Below are positions 7,695-26,203 of a stretch of DNA of 64,000 bases, one piece after another (positions within the stretch are counted from its first letter, which is position 1; the number at the start of each line of letters is the position of its first letter). Made by a program: the position numbers and the translations under genes. This DNA is from the human T2T-CHM13v2.0 reference genome, Homo sapiens: the NCBI RefSeq assembly GCF_009914755.1, contig NC_060936.1; one strand, written 5' to 3'. Below the pieces are notes generated by a model that was not told the origin of the DNA, made no database searches, and was given only the letters and a program-made list of their open reading frames with translations.

Positions 7695-8059
7695 TGTGTT
7701 AGTCCATATTTACACTACTATAAAGAACTACTTGAGACTGAGTAATTTACAAAGGAAAGAGGTTTAATCGACTCACAGTTCTGCATGGCCAGGGAGGTCT
7801 CAGGAAACTTACAATCATGGCAGAAGACGAAGGGGAAGCAAGCACCTTATTCAGAGGGTGGCAGGACAGAGAGAGAGAGCAGGGGAAACTGCCACTTTTA
7901 AACCATTAGATCTCATGAGAACTCGCTCATTGTCTTGAGAACAGCATAGGGGAAACCACCTCCATGATCCAATTACCTCCCATCAGGTCCCTCCCTCGAC
8001 AAGTGGGGATTACAATTCGAGATGATATTTGAGTGGGGACACAGAGCCAAACCATATCA
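7695..8059 (-). mobile_element. Solo MaLR LTR (THE1D/MSTA type) inserted in a MIR
   Basis: TG...CA ends, terminal gccaaaccatatca, perfect 5-bp TSD GCAAA (7690-7694/8060-8064); MIR core ggcctcagtttcctcatc on the left. Confidence 0.9.
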
Positions 8060-8735: not shown

Positions 8736-8819
8736 CAAGGAATGAAATACGTAACACATAAAAACTTAAAGAAGGTTATATGCTAAAAAACAGTTTACAT
8801 GCTGAAAAGCAGTTTATAT

Positions 8820-8930
8820 GTGAGCATCCGTGTTTTAAGCTCAACCACTACTGTGATGTCCTAGACATCTTCCCAAGAGAACTACGGTAGCATCCTTGTG
8901 TCTGTGGTGTCACTGACCTGCCAGGAACAA
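8820..8930 (+). pseudogene. Degenerate partial duplicate of PTPRO exon 7 (pseudo-exon fragment)
   Basis: Ungapped alignment to 9904-10014, 96/111 identical by hand count; TGG>TAG stop; native splice sites absent. Confidence 0.93.
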
Positions 8931-9856
8931 ACGTATAAATATGTAATGGGTTCCATATCTCTTTACTATAATTACTATCATTTTGTATTATCATTTCCCT
9001 TGCACCATTTACACCAAACCTTAGTCTGTCCTCCCCAGTAGAGCGACTTGCTCCTTTTCCTCTCCTGGATCTCAGCTTAGGAATACAGCATCAAATTAAG
9101 GAGCTGAGAATGCATCCTAAGCAAATAAATGGAAGTTTCACATTTGCATTTCAGCAGGGAATTTCTGTAGATAATAATCACCTTAACATGTCTTGAGTCC
9201 TTACTAGGTGTCAGGCACTGTGTTAAGAACCACTTTAGGAACATAAGAGAACAAAGCTAAGGATGGGCACTTCTGTGGAGACATTTTATGGTAAGGATCC
9301 TGTTGTGTTCCTCAAATTATCACCCAGGTTTTAGCCAGCTTCTTTAATTGAGCCAGCCTGTTGTGTGTTTCTTCTCTAATATAATCACAGCCTGCCTTTT
9401 CGTTCTCACTGTTGCCAAATTCAAATGTTTGCACAGGGTAGTAGTCGAGGCTGATTTGAATCTCAAAGTAATTATTCCTAGAGATCAAAGATCCTAGTAG
9501 CAAAGGAATAATAAGCCCTGATGAAATGCCACACTGCCACGCTCACTCTTTGTTAAAAGAGAAGTAAGTTTTCTCAGGTGAAGAATTTACCAGGATACTC
9601 TCACATGCACACGATGATTGAAGTGACACTTTTGTTTCTGCTGTTATTGCCGAGGCTGCTGTTTAGATCAAGGTGAGGTCAAGGAGTAGAGGGTTGCAGC
9701 TGGGCAGAGGACCTGAAGAGTTGCCAGTCCGACCGCCAATCTTTCTTTGAATCTCATTGTAAGGGCAAAAAGAAAACATGATTTTTTAAACCGGAATCTT
9801 TTATCTCAATCAGTGTAACGTGCAGCCTCCCCTGTGTTCCAATTTGAAATGTGCAG

Positions 9857-10053
9857 GTCCTTCAGGAGAGTGGATTGAAGAACTGACCGAGAAGCCGCAG
9901 CACGTGAGTGTCCACGTTTTAAGCTCAACCACTGCCTTGATGTCCTGGACATCTTCCCAAGAGAACTACAACAGCACCATTGTGTCTGTGGTGTCGCTGA
10001 CCTGCCAGAAACAAAAGGAGAGCCAGAGGCTTGAAAAGCAGTACTGCACTCAG
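9857..10053 (+). CDS. PTPRO: PTPRO exon 7: [19 protein letters not shown]...EKQYCTQ
   Basis: gtgcag|GT ... CAG|gtaaag; 197 nt, phase 1-0. Confidence 0.96.
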
Positions 10054-18190: not shown

Positions 18191-18306
18191 GTAATCTTCC
18201 CTTAACCAACTGTCAGTCTTTCCTATGGGAACAGGCAAACCTTTATGTACCAAATGTGTCTTTAAGAAATTATCTATAAATTTGATTATTTTGTAAATAC
18301 ACATAG

Positions 18307-20602
18307 TGTGTTAGTTCATTTTCACACTGCTGATAAAGAAATAGCCAAGACTGAGCAATTTACAAAAGAAAGAAGTTTAATTGGACTTACAGTTCCACGT
18401 GGCTGGGGAAGCCTCACAATCATGACAGAAGGCAAGGAGGAGCAAGTCATGTCTTATACAGATGGCAGCAAGCAAAGAGCGCTTGTGCAGGAAAACTCCC
18501 TCTTATAATAGCCATCAGATCTCATGAGACTTATTCACTATCACAAGAACGGCATGGGAGAGACCTGCCCCCAGGATTCAGTTACTTCCCACAGGGTCCC
18601 TCGCACAACACTTGGGAATTCAAGATGAGATTTGGGTGAGAACACAACCAAACCATATTATTCTGCCCCTTGCCCCTCCCAAATCTCATGTCCTCACATT
18701 TCAAAACCAATCATGCCTTCCCAACAGTCCCGAAAAGTCTTAACTAATTAACTCGAAAGTGCACAGTCAAAAGTTTCATCTGAGACAAGGCAAGTCCCTT
18801 CTGCCTATGAGTCTGTAAAATCAAAAGCAAGTTAGTTACTTCCTAGATACACTCGGGGTACAGGCATTGACACAGCTGTTCCAAATGGGAAACATTGACC
18901 AAAACAAAGAGGCTACAGGCCCCATGCAACTCCAAAATCCACTGGGACAGTCAAATCTCAAAGCTCCAAAATGATATCCTTTGACTCCGTGTCTCACATC
19001 CAGGTCATGCTGATGCAAGAGGTGGGTTCCCATGGTCTTAGGCAGTTCCACTCCTGTGGCTTTGCAGCATATATCCCCCCTCCTGGCTGCATTCACAGGC
19101 TGGCATTGAGTGTCTGCAGCTTTTCCAGGTGCACAGTGCAAGCTGTCAGTGGATCTACCATTCTGGGGTCTGGAGGATGGTGACCCTCTTCTCACAGCTC
19201 CACTAGGCAATACCCCAGTAGGGACTCTGTGTGCAGTCTCCAGCCCCACATTTCCCTTTTACATTGCCCTAGCAGAGGGCATGAGGTCCCTGCCCTGCTG
19301 CAGCAAACTTTTGCCTGGGCATCCAAGTGTTTCCATACATTTTCTGAAATCTAGGTGGAGGTTCCCAAACCTCAGTTCTTGACTCCTGTGCACCCACAGT
19401 CTCAACACCACGTGGAAGCTGCCAAGCCTTGGGGCTTGCACCCTCTGAAGCCACCAAGCCTTGGGGCTTGCACCCTCTGAAGCCACCACCTGATCTCTAC
19501 GTTGGCCCCTTTCACCCACAGCTGCAGCAGCTGGGATGCAGGGCACCAAGTCTCTAGGCTGTACACAGCACAGGGACACTGGGCCTGGGCCACAAAACCA
19601 CATTTTCCTCCCAGGCCTCCAGGCCTGTGATGGGAGGGGCTTCCATGAAGATCTCTGACTTGACCTGGAGACATTTTCCCCATTGTCTTGGGGATTAACA
19701 TTCAACTCCTCATTACTTATTCAAATTTCTGCAGCCAACTTGAATTTCTCCTCAGAAAATGGGATTTTCTTTTCTATCACATTGTCAAGCTGCAAATTTT
19801 CCAAACTTTTATGCTCTGTTTCCCTTTTAAAACTGAATGCCTTTAACAGCACCAAGTCACCTCTTGAATGCTTTGCTGCTTAGAAATTTCTTCTGCCAGA
19901 TACCCTAAATCATCTCTCTTAAGTTCAAAGTTCCAAAATCCCTAAGGGAGGCACAAAATGCTGCCAGTGTCTTTGCTAAAACGTAACAAGAATCACCTTT
20001 GCTCCAGTTCCCGACAAGTTCTTCATCCCCATCTGAGACCACCTCAGCCTAGATTTCATTGTCCATATCATTATCAGCATTTTGGTCAAAGCCATTCAAC
20101 AAGTCTCTAGGGAATTCCAAACTTTCCCACATTTTACTGTCTTCTGAGCCCTCCAAACTGTTCCAGCCTCTGCCTGTTACCCAGTTCCAAATTGCTTCCA
20201 CAGTTCTGGGTATCTTCTCAGCAGCACTCCACTCTCGGTACCAATTTACTGTATTCATTCGTTTCCATGCTGCTGACAAAGACATACCCAAGACTGGGCA
20301 ATTTACAAAAGAAGGAGGTTTAATTGGGCTTACAGTTCCACGTGGCTGGGGAAGCCCCACAATCATGGCGGAAGGCAAAGAGGAGCAAGCCATGTCTTAC
20401 ATGGATGGCACCAAGCAAGAGAGCTTGTGCAGGAAAACTCCCCCTTACAATAGCCATCAGATTTCATGAGATTTACTCACTATCATCAGAACAGCACGGG
20501 AAAGACCTGCCCCCATGATTCAGTTATCTCCCACTGGGCCCCTCCCACAACACGTGGGAATTCAAGATGAGATTTGGGTGGGGACACAGCCAAACCATAT
20601 CA
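18307..20602 (-). mobile_element. Full-length THE1 (MaLR) element: LTR 18307-18660, internal 18661-20249, LTR 20250-20602
   Basis: two ~354-bp LTRs in direct repeat, THE1-int sequence between them, perfect TSD CATAG (18302-18306/20603-20607). Confidence 0.96.
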
Positions 20603-21436: not shown

Positions 21437-21548
21437 AGAATAGCTAATCTGCTGCCAGCATGGTACTACAACTTCCGGGTTACCATGGTGACGTGGGGAG
21501 ATCCAGAATTGAGCTGCTGTGACAGCTCTACCATCAGCTTCATAACAG
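21437..21548 (+). CDS. PTPRO: PTPRO exon 10: [37 protein letters not shown]
   Basis: ttttctcattcag|AGA ... ACAG|gtgagg; 112 nt. Confidence 0.96.
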
Positions 21549-22200: not shown

Positions 22201-23485
22201 AATTAGTCTTAGATCCTCGGAAACCTTAAATTATGTAGTTGCATCATCAGTAGTCAGAGATAGCAATGAAACGGGGAAATTCATCAAAGAAACACTAACC
22301 CTTGTGGTTTGAACTAAGACGTTTCAAGAACCTTTTATCGAACGACAAGGTTGTAATTAGAGTTGTCCTGAGAAAACAGAGGAGAAAAATACCGCTTAGA
22401 GGAATAATTTTGGCAAATAGTTTCCTCAGTAGACATCTAGTTTACTCTGTTGAAATGTATGAGAAAAAAAAAAAGTGGAAAGAAATCAATCATCTGTGAA
22501 TTCTTACACAATTAACTTACATAAGCATGTCTCTTTTCTTTACTAGCCAATATCCAGAGCACTTTTTGTTCCAGATTTTAATAGTAATATTAGAGCAGAA
22601 AAGTGAAAGAATACCCAAAAAGGAGAAAATAGCAGTTACTTGGCAAGCGCTGTTAGTCTTTTGCCTATAATGATAATCACATATTTAATTATAAGTAAAC
22701 TTCACTGTATCAATAATTCTTATAATTTAACTATATTGATGTAAACTTTCTGAGAATGCTCTTTCCTTCTCACCAGGACAGTTGTCTGGAAAAAGCTCAG
22801 ATGTAACATCTCAACCTGGGACTGCTCAATTCTAGCTGTCAAACTTTGAATTATCTTAACGATTCTGGGCTTCTATTTTCTCACCGGTAGAACCCCCTAA
22901 AATGTCAGCTAAATAGGCACTAAAGCCTACTTAGAGACAACTGATTAGTAGAGCAAAACTTAATATATTGAACACCACCCTGACAGTCTTTGCACTGTCT
23001 TTTAAGGGGGAACAAAAGAAATGAAATATTAATAGGATTTGGCTTCCTGGCTCAAGTGGTTTAAGGTATGCCTTTCAAGATGGAAAACTGACTAGGATTG
23101 GGCATAGTTTATAACAGTTTAAATGGACATAGCAAGTGTGGATCAATAAACTATGGTTAATAGACAAGCTACTTACCTGGTAAGCAGTCTGTTGTCACCA
23201 ATGTATTGATGTTGATGATTTTCTATCTTTTCCTGGGTCAAATAAATAAGTGATGCTGAACCAGCAGTCTACAGGTATTGTCTCAGCATATTGACAGAGA
23301 TGGTCTCAATTTTCACATCTATAAAATGGGTATAATAATAATAAATACATAATAATAAATACCTCACAGTATGTGTGAGAATTAAATCATGTAATGTAAG
23401 TCACTATTATAATAGATTATTGTCATTTTTATACTTATTTTCTAAACCAATTGAAAATTCTAGTAGGTTTTTTTTTAACCTTCTT

Positions 23486-23782
23486 TTTTTTTTTTTACTT
23501 TTACTTTAAGTTCTGGGATACATGTACAGAACATGCAGTTTGTTACATAGGTATACATGTGCCATGGTGGTTTGCTGCACCTATCAACCTGTCATCTAGG
23601 TTTTAAGCCCCGCATACATTAGGTATTTGTCCTAATGCTCTCCCTCCCCTTGCCCCCACCCCCCGACAGTTCTCATGTGATGCTAATACTTATAACAAAC
23701 ATTCATAACTAGGTATGCTTTCAAAAATAATCATTCACTGAAGAATTTGTAATATATAAAGTAAAAACGCATGTGTGTGTGA
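23486..23782 (-). mobile_element. 5'-truncated L1PA (about PA7-10) 3' end fused to an inverted local genomic copy
   Basis: polyT, then tactttaagttctgggatacatg...ccccgacag (to ~23669), then 23675-23772 = reverse complement of 24371-24464; TSD tttttttt(a)accttctt. Confidence 0.9.
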
Positions 23783-24727
23783 TTTTTTTTACCTTCTTAT
23801 TTAAAGCAAATAAGAATCTCATGCTTAACTTTCCTATGCTTTGAATTTTCCAAATTGTGTGGTGTAAAAGAAAATAGGAACAAAATATTTGAATTAGGTG
23901 TGATTTATTAGGAACTCAAGTCTACCATCTTTGTTAGGCAATTCAGTTGGCTAGCCCTCAATCATAGTAATTATGCGGAGGGGCCAAAGTATTAATAAAC
24001 AAATAGTGACATCTTGTGGCCTTCCAGCAATATGCTAGGTTTTAAAGCAACAACATGGAAATAAAAATCTGACATGTGAGAGGAAAGATATATACTTCTG
24101 GGTTTGCAATTTTAAAGATGTTTCTTTTCCTCACTAAAATTAGGACATGAGAAAATACCCTTTGAAGAAATATATGCATAGGTTCTTGTATATGACGAAA
24201 TATGTTGGAATATATTAGGAGGCTATAAGGAAGCCAAGGTTATTTTCCTTTAGTAGAATATTCTGAAATATGATGTAGATTTGTGTTACTTGTTAGATGC
24301 ATTGATGATCTTTCAAGATTTTATTGCTAAGCATACTATATAAGTGCTACTCGTATTTCACATGAAACAAATGCATTTTTACTTCATATATTACAAATTC
24401 TTCAGTGAATAATTTTGAAAGCATAGCTAGTTATGAATGTTTGTTGTAAGTATTAGCATCACATTAGGGGAAATGATTCTTTATAGAAAATTTCCATAGA
24501 TTTTAGTTGACATTGTGCTGTATCTCAGAATGGAACACCGACTGTCTTCAAACCAACATACACCTGGAATTTAAATTCAATTGTGTATTTGTTTTTTAAA
24601 ATAATCAGAGTTAGCAGTTACTTTAAAAAGGTAATTAAAATGTTTTCAGAGCCTATATAGTATAAAGCTTGTGATGAATTCTCTTCCCTCGTTGGCAAAT
24701 TTTTTATTTTATTTATTTACGTTTTTT

Positions 24728-26051: not shown

Positions 26052-26203
26052 CCCCAGTGGCTCCGGAAATCACTTCTGTGGAATATTTCAACAGTCTGTT
26101 ATATATCAGTTGGACATATGGGGATGATACAACGGACTTGTCCCATTCTAGAATGCTTCACTGGATGGTGGTTGCAGAAGGAAAAAAGAAAATTAAAAAG
26201 AGT
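26052..26203 (+). CDS. PTPRO: PTPRO exon 11: [21 protein letters not shown]...KKKIKKS
   Basis: ctcccttgtag|CC ... AGT|gtatgt; 152 nt. Confidence 0.96.

What the first reader, a model, noticed from the sequence alone, without database searches (positions are those of the whole stretch)
23468..24464. L1 chimera that captured an inverted copy of the host intron 600 bp downstream, leaving a ~95-bp stem-loop
Seen: between TSDs tttttttt(a)accttctt (23468-23485 / 23783-23798) lie a poly(T), ~170 nt of antisense L1PA 3' end, and then 23675-23772. That last part is the reverse complement of unique intron sequence 24371-24464, with 4 substitutions and one small indel by hand alignment. The right TSD ends TCTT/AT, like an L1 endonuclease site. 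Established: for a minus-strand L1 the top strand is first-strand cDNA. Inference: the second template had PTPRO sense polarity, so ORF2p switched from L1 RNA onto nascent PTPRO pre-mRNA, or displaced top-strand DNA, at the site being invaded. The junction TGTGATG resembles the next L1 bases as I recall them (possible microhomology). The result is a non-Alu ~95-bp duplex with a ~600-nt loop in intron 10 pre-mRNA. With the exon-7 copy, this makes two local self-templated insertions in 16 kb.
Basis: partly seen in the sequence, partly recalled or inferred. Interest (0 to 1): 0.8.

Follow-up and report, generated by a model that had tools for sequence, protein, structure and literature searches.

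The report
L1 insertion carrying inverted local intron copy
An old, truncated L1 retrotransposon in a PTPRO intron carries, inside its own target-site duplications, a roughly 100-base inverted copy of unique DNA lying 570 bases away, which is a fixed germline example of a side-product of L1 integration already described in cultured cells and tumours.

Summary
T12 and 172 nt of antisense L1 3' end sit between 16-18-nt target-site duplications (TSDs). They are followed by a ~102-nt segment (23675-23776) that is the reverse complement of 24367-24464, with 6 mismatches in 98 columns and one 4-nt indel. The arm sequence has only these two places in the 3.1-Gb assembly, so it is not a transposon terminal inverted repeat (TIR). 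No control box matched the TSD score (0 of 9,025). As RNA, the arms form 95 long-range pairs around a 590-nt loop.

The best reading is one L1 target-primed integration that also copied nearby sequence. This class is already in print: "templated insertions" in tumours, and extra sequence templated from DNA near the integration site in L1-expressing cells.

Snap-back synthesis from the opposite break end gives the same product without a sense-polarity template. RNA and DNA templates cannot be told apart from this sequence. I favour local DNA.

The proposed TGTGATG microhomology is real in L1 copies but lies 10 nt past the breakpoint, so it is not a simple junction. The primate presence/absence test could not be run. 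This is a new member of a known kind, of modest interest.

The parts
23468..23485 (.). Left target-site duplication (T9 AA CCTTCTT)
   Evidence: The TSD box score is 14 and 0 of 9,025 control boxes reach it.
23486..23497 (-). L1 poly(A) tail, read as T12 on the + strand
   Evidence: The other L1 copies align from query base 1, which includes the T run.
23498..23669 (-). 5'-truncated L1 3' end (172 nt), antisense to PTPRO. The + strand is the first-strand cDNA.
   Evidence: 39 other genomic copies at 92-95% identity, with homology ending at window 23669 in 30 of them. Private divergence is about 0.02, against about 0.038 for the other copies.
23670..23674 (.). Ambiguous junction bases TTCTC. 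They could be filler. They could be partly arm, since CT matches the source. With the next AT they could also be the L1 word TTCTCAT, which lies 39-45 nt further into L1.
   Evidence: TTCTCAT sits at offset +39 in 20 of 29 copies.
23675..23776 (+). Left arm: inverted copy of 24367-24464. It may extend to 23782.
   Evidence: 6 mismatches in 98 columns plus a 4-nt indel. The genome holds only this place and the source.
23777..23782 (.). GTGTGA. Either filler or a diverged, (TG)n-altered end of the arm whose last 5 bases match the reverse complement of 24358-24362.
   Evidence: Read by eye. Neither the strict nor the lenient alignment includes it.
23783..23798 (.). Right target-site duplication (T8 A CCTTCTT), followed by AT. 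The inferred first-strand nick is TCTT/AT.
23799..24366 (+). Unique intron sequence between the insertion site and the source. It forms the loop of the predicted RNA stem-loop.
24367..24467 (+). Right arm: the source sequence that was copied. It may start at 24358.

Best explanation
One endonuclease-dependent L1 integration (target-primed reverse transcription, TPRT) took place in the PTPRO intron between the exons at 21437-21548 and 26052-26203.

The + strand was nicked at TCTT/AT and primed on the L1 poly(A). It was extended by T12 and about 172 nt of L1 cDNA. Before the two break ends were joined, about 100-110 nt were copied from local genomic DNA lying 560-670 bp away on the side of the L1 5' junction, and this copy was built in inverted.

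Two DNA-templated routes give exactly this product:
- The cDNA 3' end leaves the L1 RNA and primes on the + DNA strand at 24463-24467, then copies back towards the break. This resembles synthesis-dependent strand annealing.
- After 5' resection, the 3' overhang of the reciprocal end snaps back on its own strand near 24358 and copies away from the break. Its new 3' end then pairs with the cDNA.

The structure and the single-event origin are shown. The template being DNA, and which of the two routes was used, are inferred.

The by-product is a 95-pair intronic inverted repeat that should fold as double-stranded RNA (dsRNA) in PTPRO pre-mRNA. It lies within a single intron and flanks no exon, so no splicing effect is predicted.
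For: - Position: the arm lies between the L1 5' end and the right TSD, and the TSD is significant (0 of 9,025 control boxes).
- Uniqueness: the arm sequence has 2 of 2 genome matches at this locus.
- Age: arm divergence (Jukes-Cantor 0.064 between arms, about 0.03 per arm) is of the same order as the L1 copy's private divergence (about 0.02; other copies about 0.038). This fits a common age.
- Junction: if the L1 cDNA ended in the word TTCTCAT, 4 of its last 5 bases can pair at the source (CTcAT against CTaAT).
- Precedent in tumours: 22 'templated insertions' among 3,598 somatic L1 insertions (81 unclassified). Templates were under 250 bp, and the authors explain them, citing Gilbert et al. 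2005, by cDNA pairing with nearby DNA (10.1101/2024.08.27.596794, passages).
[quoted passage not shown] - Availability: local DNA is always present at the break, whereas a local RNA template requires PTPRO to be transcribed in the germ line.
Against: - Nothing in the sequence excludes an RNA template. The copy is in the same transcriptional orientation as the L1 relative to PTPRO sense RNA, which is the orientation expected for reverse-transcriptase template switching between RNAs (PMC13174262, passages).
- The snap-back route has no microhomology at its start: the overhang ends in A8, while the source is preceded by TT/ATT.
- The strand-switch route has none at its end.
- The L1/arm junction has three competing parses, and one of them needs an extra 38-nt internal L1 deletion.
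- The tumour preprint prints 'within 15 bp of the insertion site' for typical templates. Here the template is 560-670 bp away.
- Single-event origin was not checked in other primates, because none were available.
Confidence: 0.6

Rival explanations
1. Reader's RNA version. During TPRT, ORF2p switched from the L1 RNA onto nascent PTPRO pre-mRNA held at the locus and reverse-transcribed about 100 nt of intron. It then jumped to the reciprocal DNA end.
For: - The geometry fits. The copy continues the cDNA strand and needs a template of + (PTPRO sense) polarity.
- Same-orientation chimeras are the signature of reverse-transcriptase template switching (PMC13174262).
- ORF2p template jumping has been shown in vitro (PMC10830420).
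- Possible 4-of-5 pairing at the switch point.
Against: - It requires PTPRO transcription in the germ line or early embryo at the moment of insertion. This was not tested, and from recall PTPRO is mainly expressed in kidney, brain and myeloid cells.
- The source lies on the reciprocal-end side within resection distance. DNA routes predict this; the RNA route does not.
- Two searches and the catalogue passages I read showed no described case of host pre-mRNA from the integration site used as second template.
- The experimental papers attribute comparable events to DNA.
Confidence: 0.2
2. Pre-formed chimeric RNA. A PTPRO intron fragment was ligated or trans-spliced to an L1 3' fragment, and the chimera was then retrotransposed.
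For: RNA ligation and trans-splicing are proposed routes for U6/L1 and exon/L1 chimeras. The orientation fits.
Against: - A free chimeric RNA would have to land within 600 bp of its own source in a 3.1-Gb genome.
- No splice-site features are evident at the junction by eye.
- The captured piece is internal intron sequence.
Confidence: 0.03
3. Two independent events. An ordinary truncated L1 insertion was followed later by an unrelated replicative inverted duplication that happened to land exactly between the L1 5' end and its TSD.
For: Small inverted duplications arise without L1. 277 were found, with a median length of 284 bp, in 1,019 long-read human genomes (PMC12350158, passages).
Against: It needs a breakpoint within a few bases of the L1/TSD boundary. 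Arm and L1 divergence are of similar order.
Confidence: 0.03
4. The two arms are terminal inverted repeats of a DNA transposon or MITE, and the L1 inserted next to it.
For: None beyond the inverted-repeat shape.
Against: - Only 2 matches exist in the whole assembly, and both are these arms.
- The left arm lies inside the L1 TSDs.
- No duplication flanks the pair of arms (read by eye).
Confidence: 0.01

Closest known systems
L1 'templated insertions' / chimeric L1s that duplicate a nearby genomic segment (Zumalave et al. preprint 10.1101/2024.08.27.596794, which cites Gilbert et al. 2005 Mol Cell Biol)
   Same: A non-L1 segment under 250 bp is copied during integration and built into the L1 insert, and the source is retained. 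The explanation offered is that the cDNA leaves the L1 RNA and pairs with nearby DNA.
   Different: - Those events are somatic tumour events, whereas this one is fixed in the germ line and old.
- The preprint prints a typical template distance of 15 bp. Here it is 560-670 bp.
- The orientation of their copies was not visible to me, because the supplements were closed and Gilbert 2005 was not held.
[quoted passage not shown]
   Same: L1-mediated insertions carry extra locally templated DNA. The authors attribute them to processing of the reciprocal break end before ligation.
   Different: These were 3 + 3 events in an L1 over-expression cell model. Their geometry is in Figs S9/S10, which I could not see.
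Twin priming (5'-inverted L1; Ostertag and Kazazian 2001, as cited)
   Same: An inverted segment lies at the 5' side of a truncated L1, within normal TSDs. Both break ends take part.
   Different: In twin priming the inverted segment is L1 sequence copied from the same RNA. Here it is unique flanking DNA.
RNA/L1 chimeras made by template switching or RNA ligation (U6/L1, Alu/L1, mRNA/L1; PMC13174262)
   Same: The structure is 5' foreign part, then 3' L1, then poly(A), all within TSDs. The foreign part is in sense orientation relative to L1.
   Different: In those chimeras the foreign part is an abundant cellular RNA whose gene lies elsewhere. Here it is intron sequence from 600 bp away.
Polymerase-theta 'snap-back' templated insertions at repaired breaks (recalled, not from any call)
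   Same: An inverted copy of nearby flanking DNA is made when a 3' end folds back on its own strand.
   Different: As I recall, these are usually only a few to tens of bases, copied from within tens of bases of the break.

Membership tests
Endonuclease-dependent L1 TPRT insertion | Target-site duplications of about 7-20 bp flanking the whole insert | tested here: met
   16-18 nt TSDs at 23468-23485 and 23783-23798. 0 of 9,025 control boxes score as high.
Endonuclease-dependent L1 TPRT insertion | Poly(A) tail at the L1 3' end next to one TSD | tested here: met
   T12 on the + strand at 23486-23497.
Endonuclease-dependent L1 TPRT insertion | T-rich/purine cleavage site resembling TTTT/AA on the primed strand | tested here: met
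   TCTT/AT, read from the empty-site reconstruction. Comparable motifs TTCT/A and TTTT/A are quoted.
Endonuclease-dependent L1 TPRT insertion | Homology to the L1 3' end | tested here: met
   39 other genomic copies at 92-95% identity over 172-184 nt.
L1-associated templated insertion of local DNA | Non-L1 segment inside the TSDs, contiguous with the L1 5' end | tested here: met
   23675-23776 lies between the L1 end (23669) and the right TSD (23783).
L1-associated templated insertion of local DNA | Template short (under 250 bp) and retained at its source | tested here: met
   About 100-110 nt. The source is intact at 24367-24467.
L1-associated templated insertion of local DNA | Template close to the insertion site | tested here: inconclusive
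   It lies 560-670 bp away. One preprint prints 'within 15 bp' and the other only says 'near'.
L1-associated templated insertion of local DNA | The template is DNA rather than RNA | not testable with these tools
   The product sequence is the same for both.
RNA/L1 template-switch chimera (U6/L1 type) | Foreign part in the same transcriptional orientation as the L1 | tested here: met
   On the L1 sense (-) strand the arm reads as PTPRO sense sequence.
RNA/L1 template-switch chimera (U6/L1 type) | Foreign part derives from a cellular RNA whose gene is elsewhere | tested here: not met
   The source is unique intron DNA 570 bp from the insertion. There are only 2 genome matches, both local.
Twin-priming 5'-inverted L1 | The inverted segment is L1 sequence | tested here: not met
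   The segment matches the flanking intron and not the L1 copies.
DNA transposon / MITE with TIRs | Multiple dispersed copies | tested here: not met
   Both of the 2 matches in 3.1 Gb are the two arms. The tool warns that its counts are lower bounds.
L1 5' transduction | Full-length L1 preceded by sequence upstream of its source element | tested here: not met
   The L1 is truncated to 172 nt.

The most novel reading that the evidence does not exclude
The second template was nascent PTPRO pre-mRNA, or the non-template DNA strand laid bare by PTPRO transcription, at the very site being invaded. Such L1 junctions would then be fossil records that a host gene was being transcribed in the germ line at the moment of integration. 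They would also show that ORF2p can switch onto host RNA held in cis.
Probability: 0.2. Interest if true: 0.65.

Novelty: new member of a known kind. Interest (0 to 1): 0.3.

Why it matters
This is a cleanly resolved, fixed germline example of an L1 integration that also copied nearby host sequence. The event type has so far been documented mainly in cell models and tumours. Both junctions, both TSDs and the source are preserved.

Cases like this one, collected genome-wide, could decide which end of the L1-made break does the copying, and whether RNA or DNA is the template.

It also shows that L1 integration can create long non-Alu inverted repeats inside introns. Here that means 95 predicted pairs and a 38-bp perfect run. 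Such repeats are potential ADAR or dsRNA-sensor substrates that repeat-based annotation would miss. For PTPRO itself, no effect on splicing is expected.

Tried and rejected
- TIR or repeat-family reading: rejected. The arm query found only the two arms in the genome.
- Simple TGTGATG microhomology: rejected as stated. In L1 copies the word starts 10 nt past the breakpoint, and the 9 bases in between are missing from the window.
- Three parses of the L1/arm junction were left unresolved:
  - a 5-nt filler TTCTC;
  - a 2-nt filler, with the arm starting at 23672 and carrying one mismatch;
  - L1 continuing to the word TTCTCAT after a 38-nt internal deletion.
- Extension of the arm to 23782 / 24358: suggested by eye (TGTGA). 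Neither alignment scoring recovers it, so it stays 'possible'.
- Twin priming and 5' transduction: rejected on defining features (see the membership test).
- Control for chance: no comparable non-repeat inverted pair in 92,344 bases of 29 L1-bearing control loci or elsewhere in the window.
- Gilbert et al. 2005 is not held. The supplementary figures of both preprints were not opened because preprint supplements are closed, so I could not compare the orientation and side of their templates with this case.
- A pilot scan of the rest of the PTPRO gene for further local copies could not be run.
- No primate genomes were available, so the presence/absence test was not done.
- A-to-I editing could not be examined because there were no RNA data.

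Full report
**What is there**

Reading 23300-24700, with the repeat finder, gives this order on the + strand:
- left TSD, 23468-23485 (T9 AA CCTTCTT)
- T12, 23486-23497
- 172 nt of antisense L1 3' end, 23498-23669
- five ambiguous bases, 23670-23674
- a segment, 23675-23776, that is the reverse complement of 24367-24464
- six bases GTGTGA
- right TSD, 23783-23798 (T8 A CCTTCTT)
- AT and then unique intron sequence

A gapped alignment of the arms gives 23672-23776 against 24467-24367. From the first exact base (23675) there are 6 mismatches in 98 columns and one 4-nt indel, for a Jukes-Cantor distance of 0.064.

**Is it more than chance?**

- The two TSD boxes score 14 in a local alignment. None of 9,025 control boxes drawn across the window reaches that; the maximum is 11.
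- A self-comparison of the whole 64-kb window finds only one low-copy inverted pair of 50 nt or more, and it is this one.
- In 92,344 bases of 29 control loci there are 13 inverted pairs of 60 nt or more. Twelve are 63-308 nt at 73-91% identity, which by size are ordinary repeat pairs, and one overlaps the L1 match itself.

**Not a repeat family**

A search of the window's own 3.1-Gb assembly with 24340-24490 returned two places only: the query itself and the left arm, at 90% identity. The tool warns that its counts are lower bounds, but for a 150-nt unique query this is strong.

**The L1 part**

The query 23486-23674 had 4,282 first-look candidates, of which 40 were scored: the locus itself and 39 other copies at 92-95% identity. 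In 30 of the 39, homology ends at query base 184, which is window 23669. I could not name the subfamily because no repeat library was available.

I built no consensus and used pairwise distances instead. The window copy's private divergence is about 0.02 and that of the 29 fetched copies about 0.038. The first figure is biased low, because the 29 were chosen as the copies most like the window copy. Each arm has diverged by about 0.03. The L1 and the duplication are thus of similar age, within wide error.

**The junctions**

Of the 29 fetched copies, 24 continue as L1 past the breakpoint.
- They read nine bases and then TGTGATG. That word is at offset +10 in 17 of the 29 copies, and at +12 in one more.
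- Further on they read TTCTCAT, at offset +39 in 20 of the 29.
- The window reads TTCTC after the last L1 base, and the arm then starts with ATGTGATG.

The nine L1 bases before it are absent, which rules out a plain microhomology junction.

Three parses remain:
- a 5-nt filler. Extra nucleotides were found at 14.6% of 5'-truncated L1 junctions (PMC2912911, Table 4);
- a 2-nt filler, with the arm starting at 23672 and carrying one mismatch;
- L1 cDNA that ran on to TTCTCAT and carries a 38-nt internal deletion. In that case 4 of its last 5 bases could pair with the source.

I cannot choose between them.

At the other end, the last five bases before the right TSD (TGTGA) match the source at 24358-24362 across a (TG)n-like stretch. 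The arm may therefore run to 23782 with no filler, but neither alignment scoring recovers this.

**How it arose**

Under TPRT, which is established, a minus-strand L1 has its first-strand cDNA on the + strand. That strand was primed here from the 3'-OH at TCTT/AT. The arm lies between the cDNA and the right TSD, so it was added before the two break ends were sealed.

Three routes give the identical product:
- (A) The cDNA 3' end switches to PTPRO pre-mRNA.
- (B) The cDNA 3' end switches to the + DNA strand at 24463-24467 and copies towards the break.
- (C) After 5' resection of the + strand, the 3' overhang of the reciprocal end folds back on its own (-) strand near 24358 and copies away from the break. 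Its new end then pairs with the cDNA.

That matters, because C needs no template of sense polarity. C lacks microhomology where it would start (A8 against TT/ATT in the source). B and A lack it where they would end. This does not decide between them.

I favour DNA (B or C together about 0.6) over RNA (about 0.2) for four reasons:
- Local DNA is always at hand.
- The source lies on the reciprocal-end side, within ordinary resection distance.
- A free or ligated chimeric RNA would not be expected to land 600 bp from its own source.
- The RNA route needs PTPRO transcription in the germ line, which is untested.

Two independent events are very unlikely, since the second would have to hit the L1/TSD boundary to within a few bases.

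**What is known**

This type of event is in print.
- A long-read tumour study reports 22 'templated insertions' among 3,598 somatic L1 insertions, of which 81 were unclassified. Templates were under 250 bp. The authors explain them, citing Gilbert et al. 2005, by the cDNA leaving the L1 RNA and pairing with nearby DNA. [quoted passage not shown] It attributes them to processing of that end (PMC11702581, section 7 read in full, plus passages).
- Purified ORF2p shows DNA-directed synthesis, non-templated addition and template jumping (PMC10830420, passages).
- In the passages I saw, a comparative-genomic catalogue of L1 chimeras covers RNA partners only. It states the orientation rule: same orientation means a template switch or RNA ligation, and opposite orientation means twin priming (PMC13174262 and its preprint, passages).

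Two searches aimed at the RNA-in-cis idea or at inverted flanking copies, and one on templated insertions, turned up no description of host pre-mRNA from the integration site serving as second template. Subscription papers and closed supplements were not searched. Gilbert et al. 2005 was not held.

**Consequence**

Folded as RNA, 23640-24500 closes a 590-nt loop with 95 long-range pairs. Two of them are G-U, and the longest perfect run is 38 bp. The minimum free energy is -266.4 kcal/mol with z = -10.2 against 20 shuffles, and the arms alone give -132.8 kcal/mol. This is a plausible editing substrate. It lies within one intron and brackets no exon, so I predict no effect on exon choice. Editing could not be checked.

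**The 'exon-7 copy'**

A 112-nt direct copy of part of the exon at 9857-10053 lies at 8820-8931 (86.6% identity, 973 nt upstream). It too is unique to this locus. I found no tail or TSDs tying it to a retroelement insertion, so the claim of two self-templated insertions is not established.

**Verdict**

The template (RNA or DNA) and the route remain open, with DNA favoured. This is a fixed germline member of a known class of L1 integration by-products. Interest is modest, and would be higher only if a genome-wide census showed a host-transcription strand rule.

Noticed in passing
window 8820-8931 (source 9904-10015); also 8803-8813 (source 10032-10042): A 112-nt direct copy (86.6% identity) of the inner part of the PTPRO exon at 9857-10053 lies 973 nt upstream of it, and the genome has no other copy. 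Just upstream of the copy, an exact 11-nt word matches a later part of the same exon, so the order is permuted. An Alu with an (AAAT)n tail ends at about 8735, but the copy does not lie inside any TSD pair that I could see.
   Followed up: partly
window 18304-18658, 20247-20600 and 7695-8057: Three direct copies of a roughly 350-nt element (87% identity between the first two, 70-72% to the third). It appears at low copy number within the window and is probably an interspersed repeat family. It was not identified.
   Followed up: no
L016 and L017 (G000 contig C23, about 53 kb apart, opposite strands): These two L1 copies are identical over the 90 bases printed around the junction region and have the same identity to the query. 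This suggests they lie in a large inverted duplication.
   Followed up: no
L012, L019, L027: Three of the 29 fetched L1 copies stop being L1 within 8 nt of the point where the window copy stops, at query bases 176-182 in the C-rich tract. This hints at a favoured truncation point.
   Followed up: no
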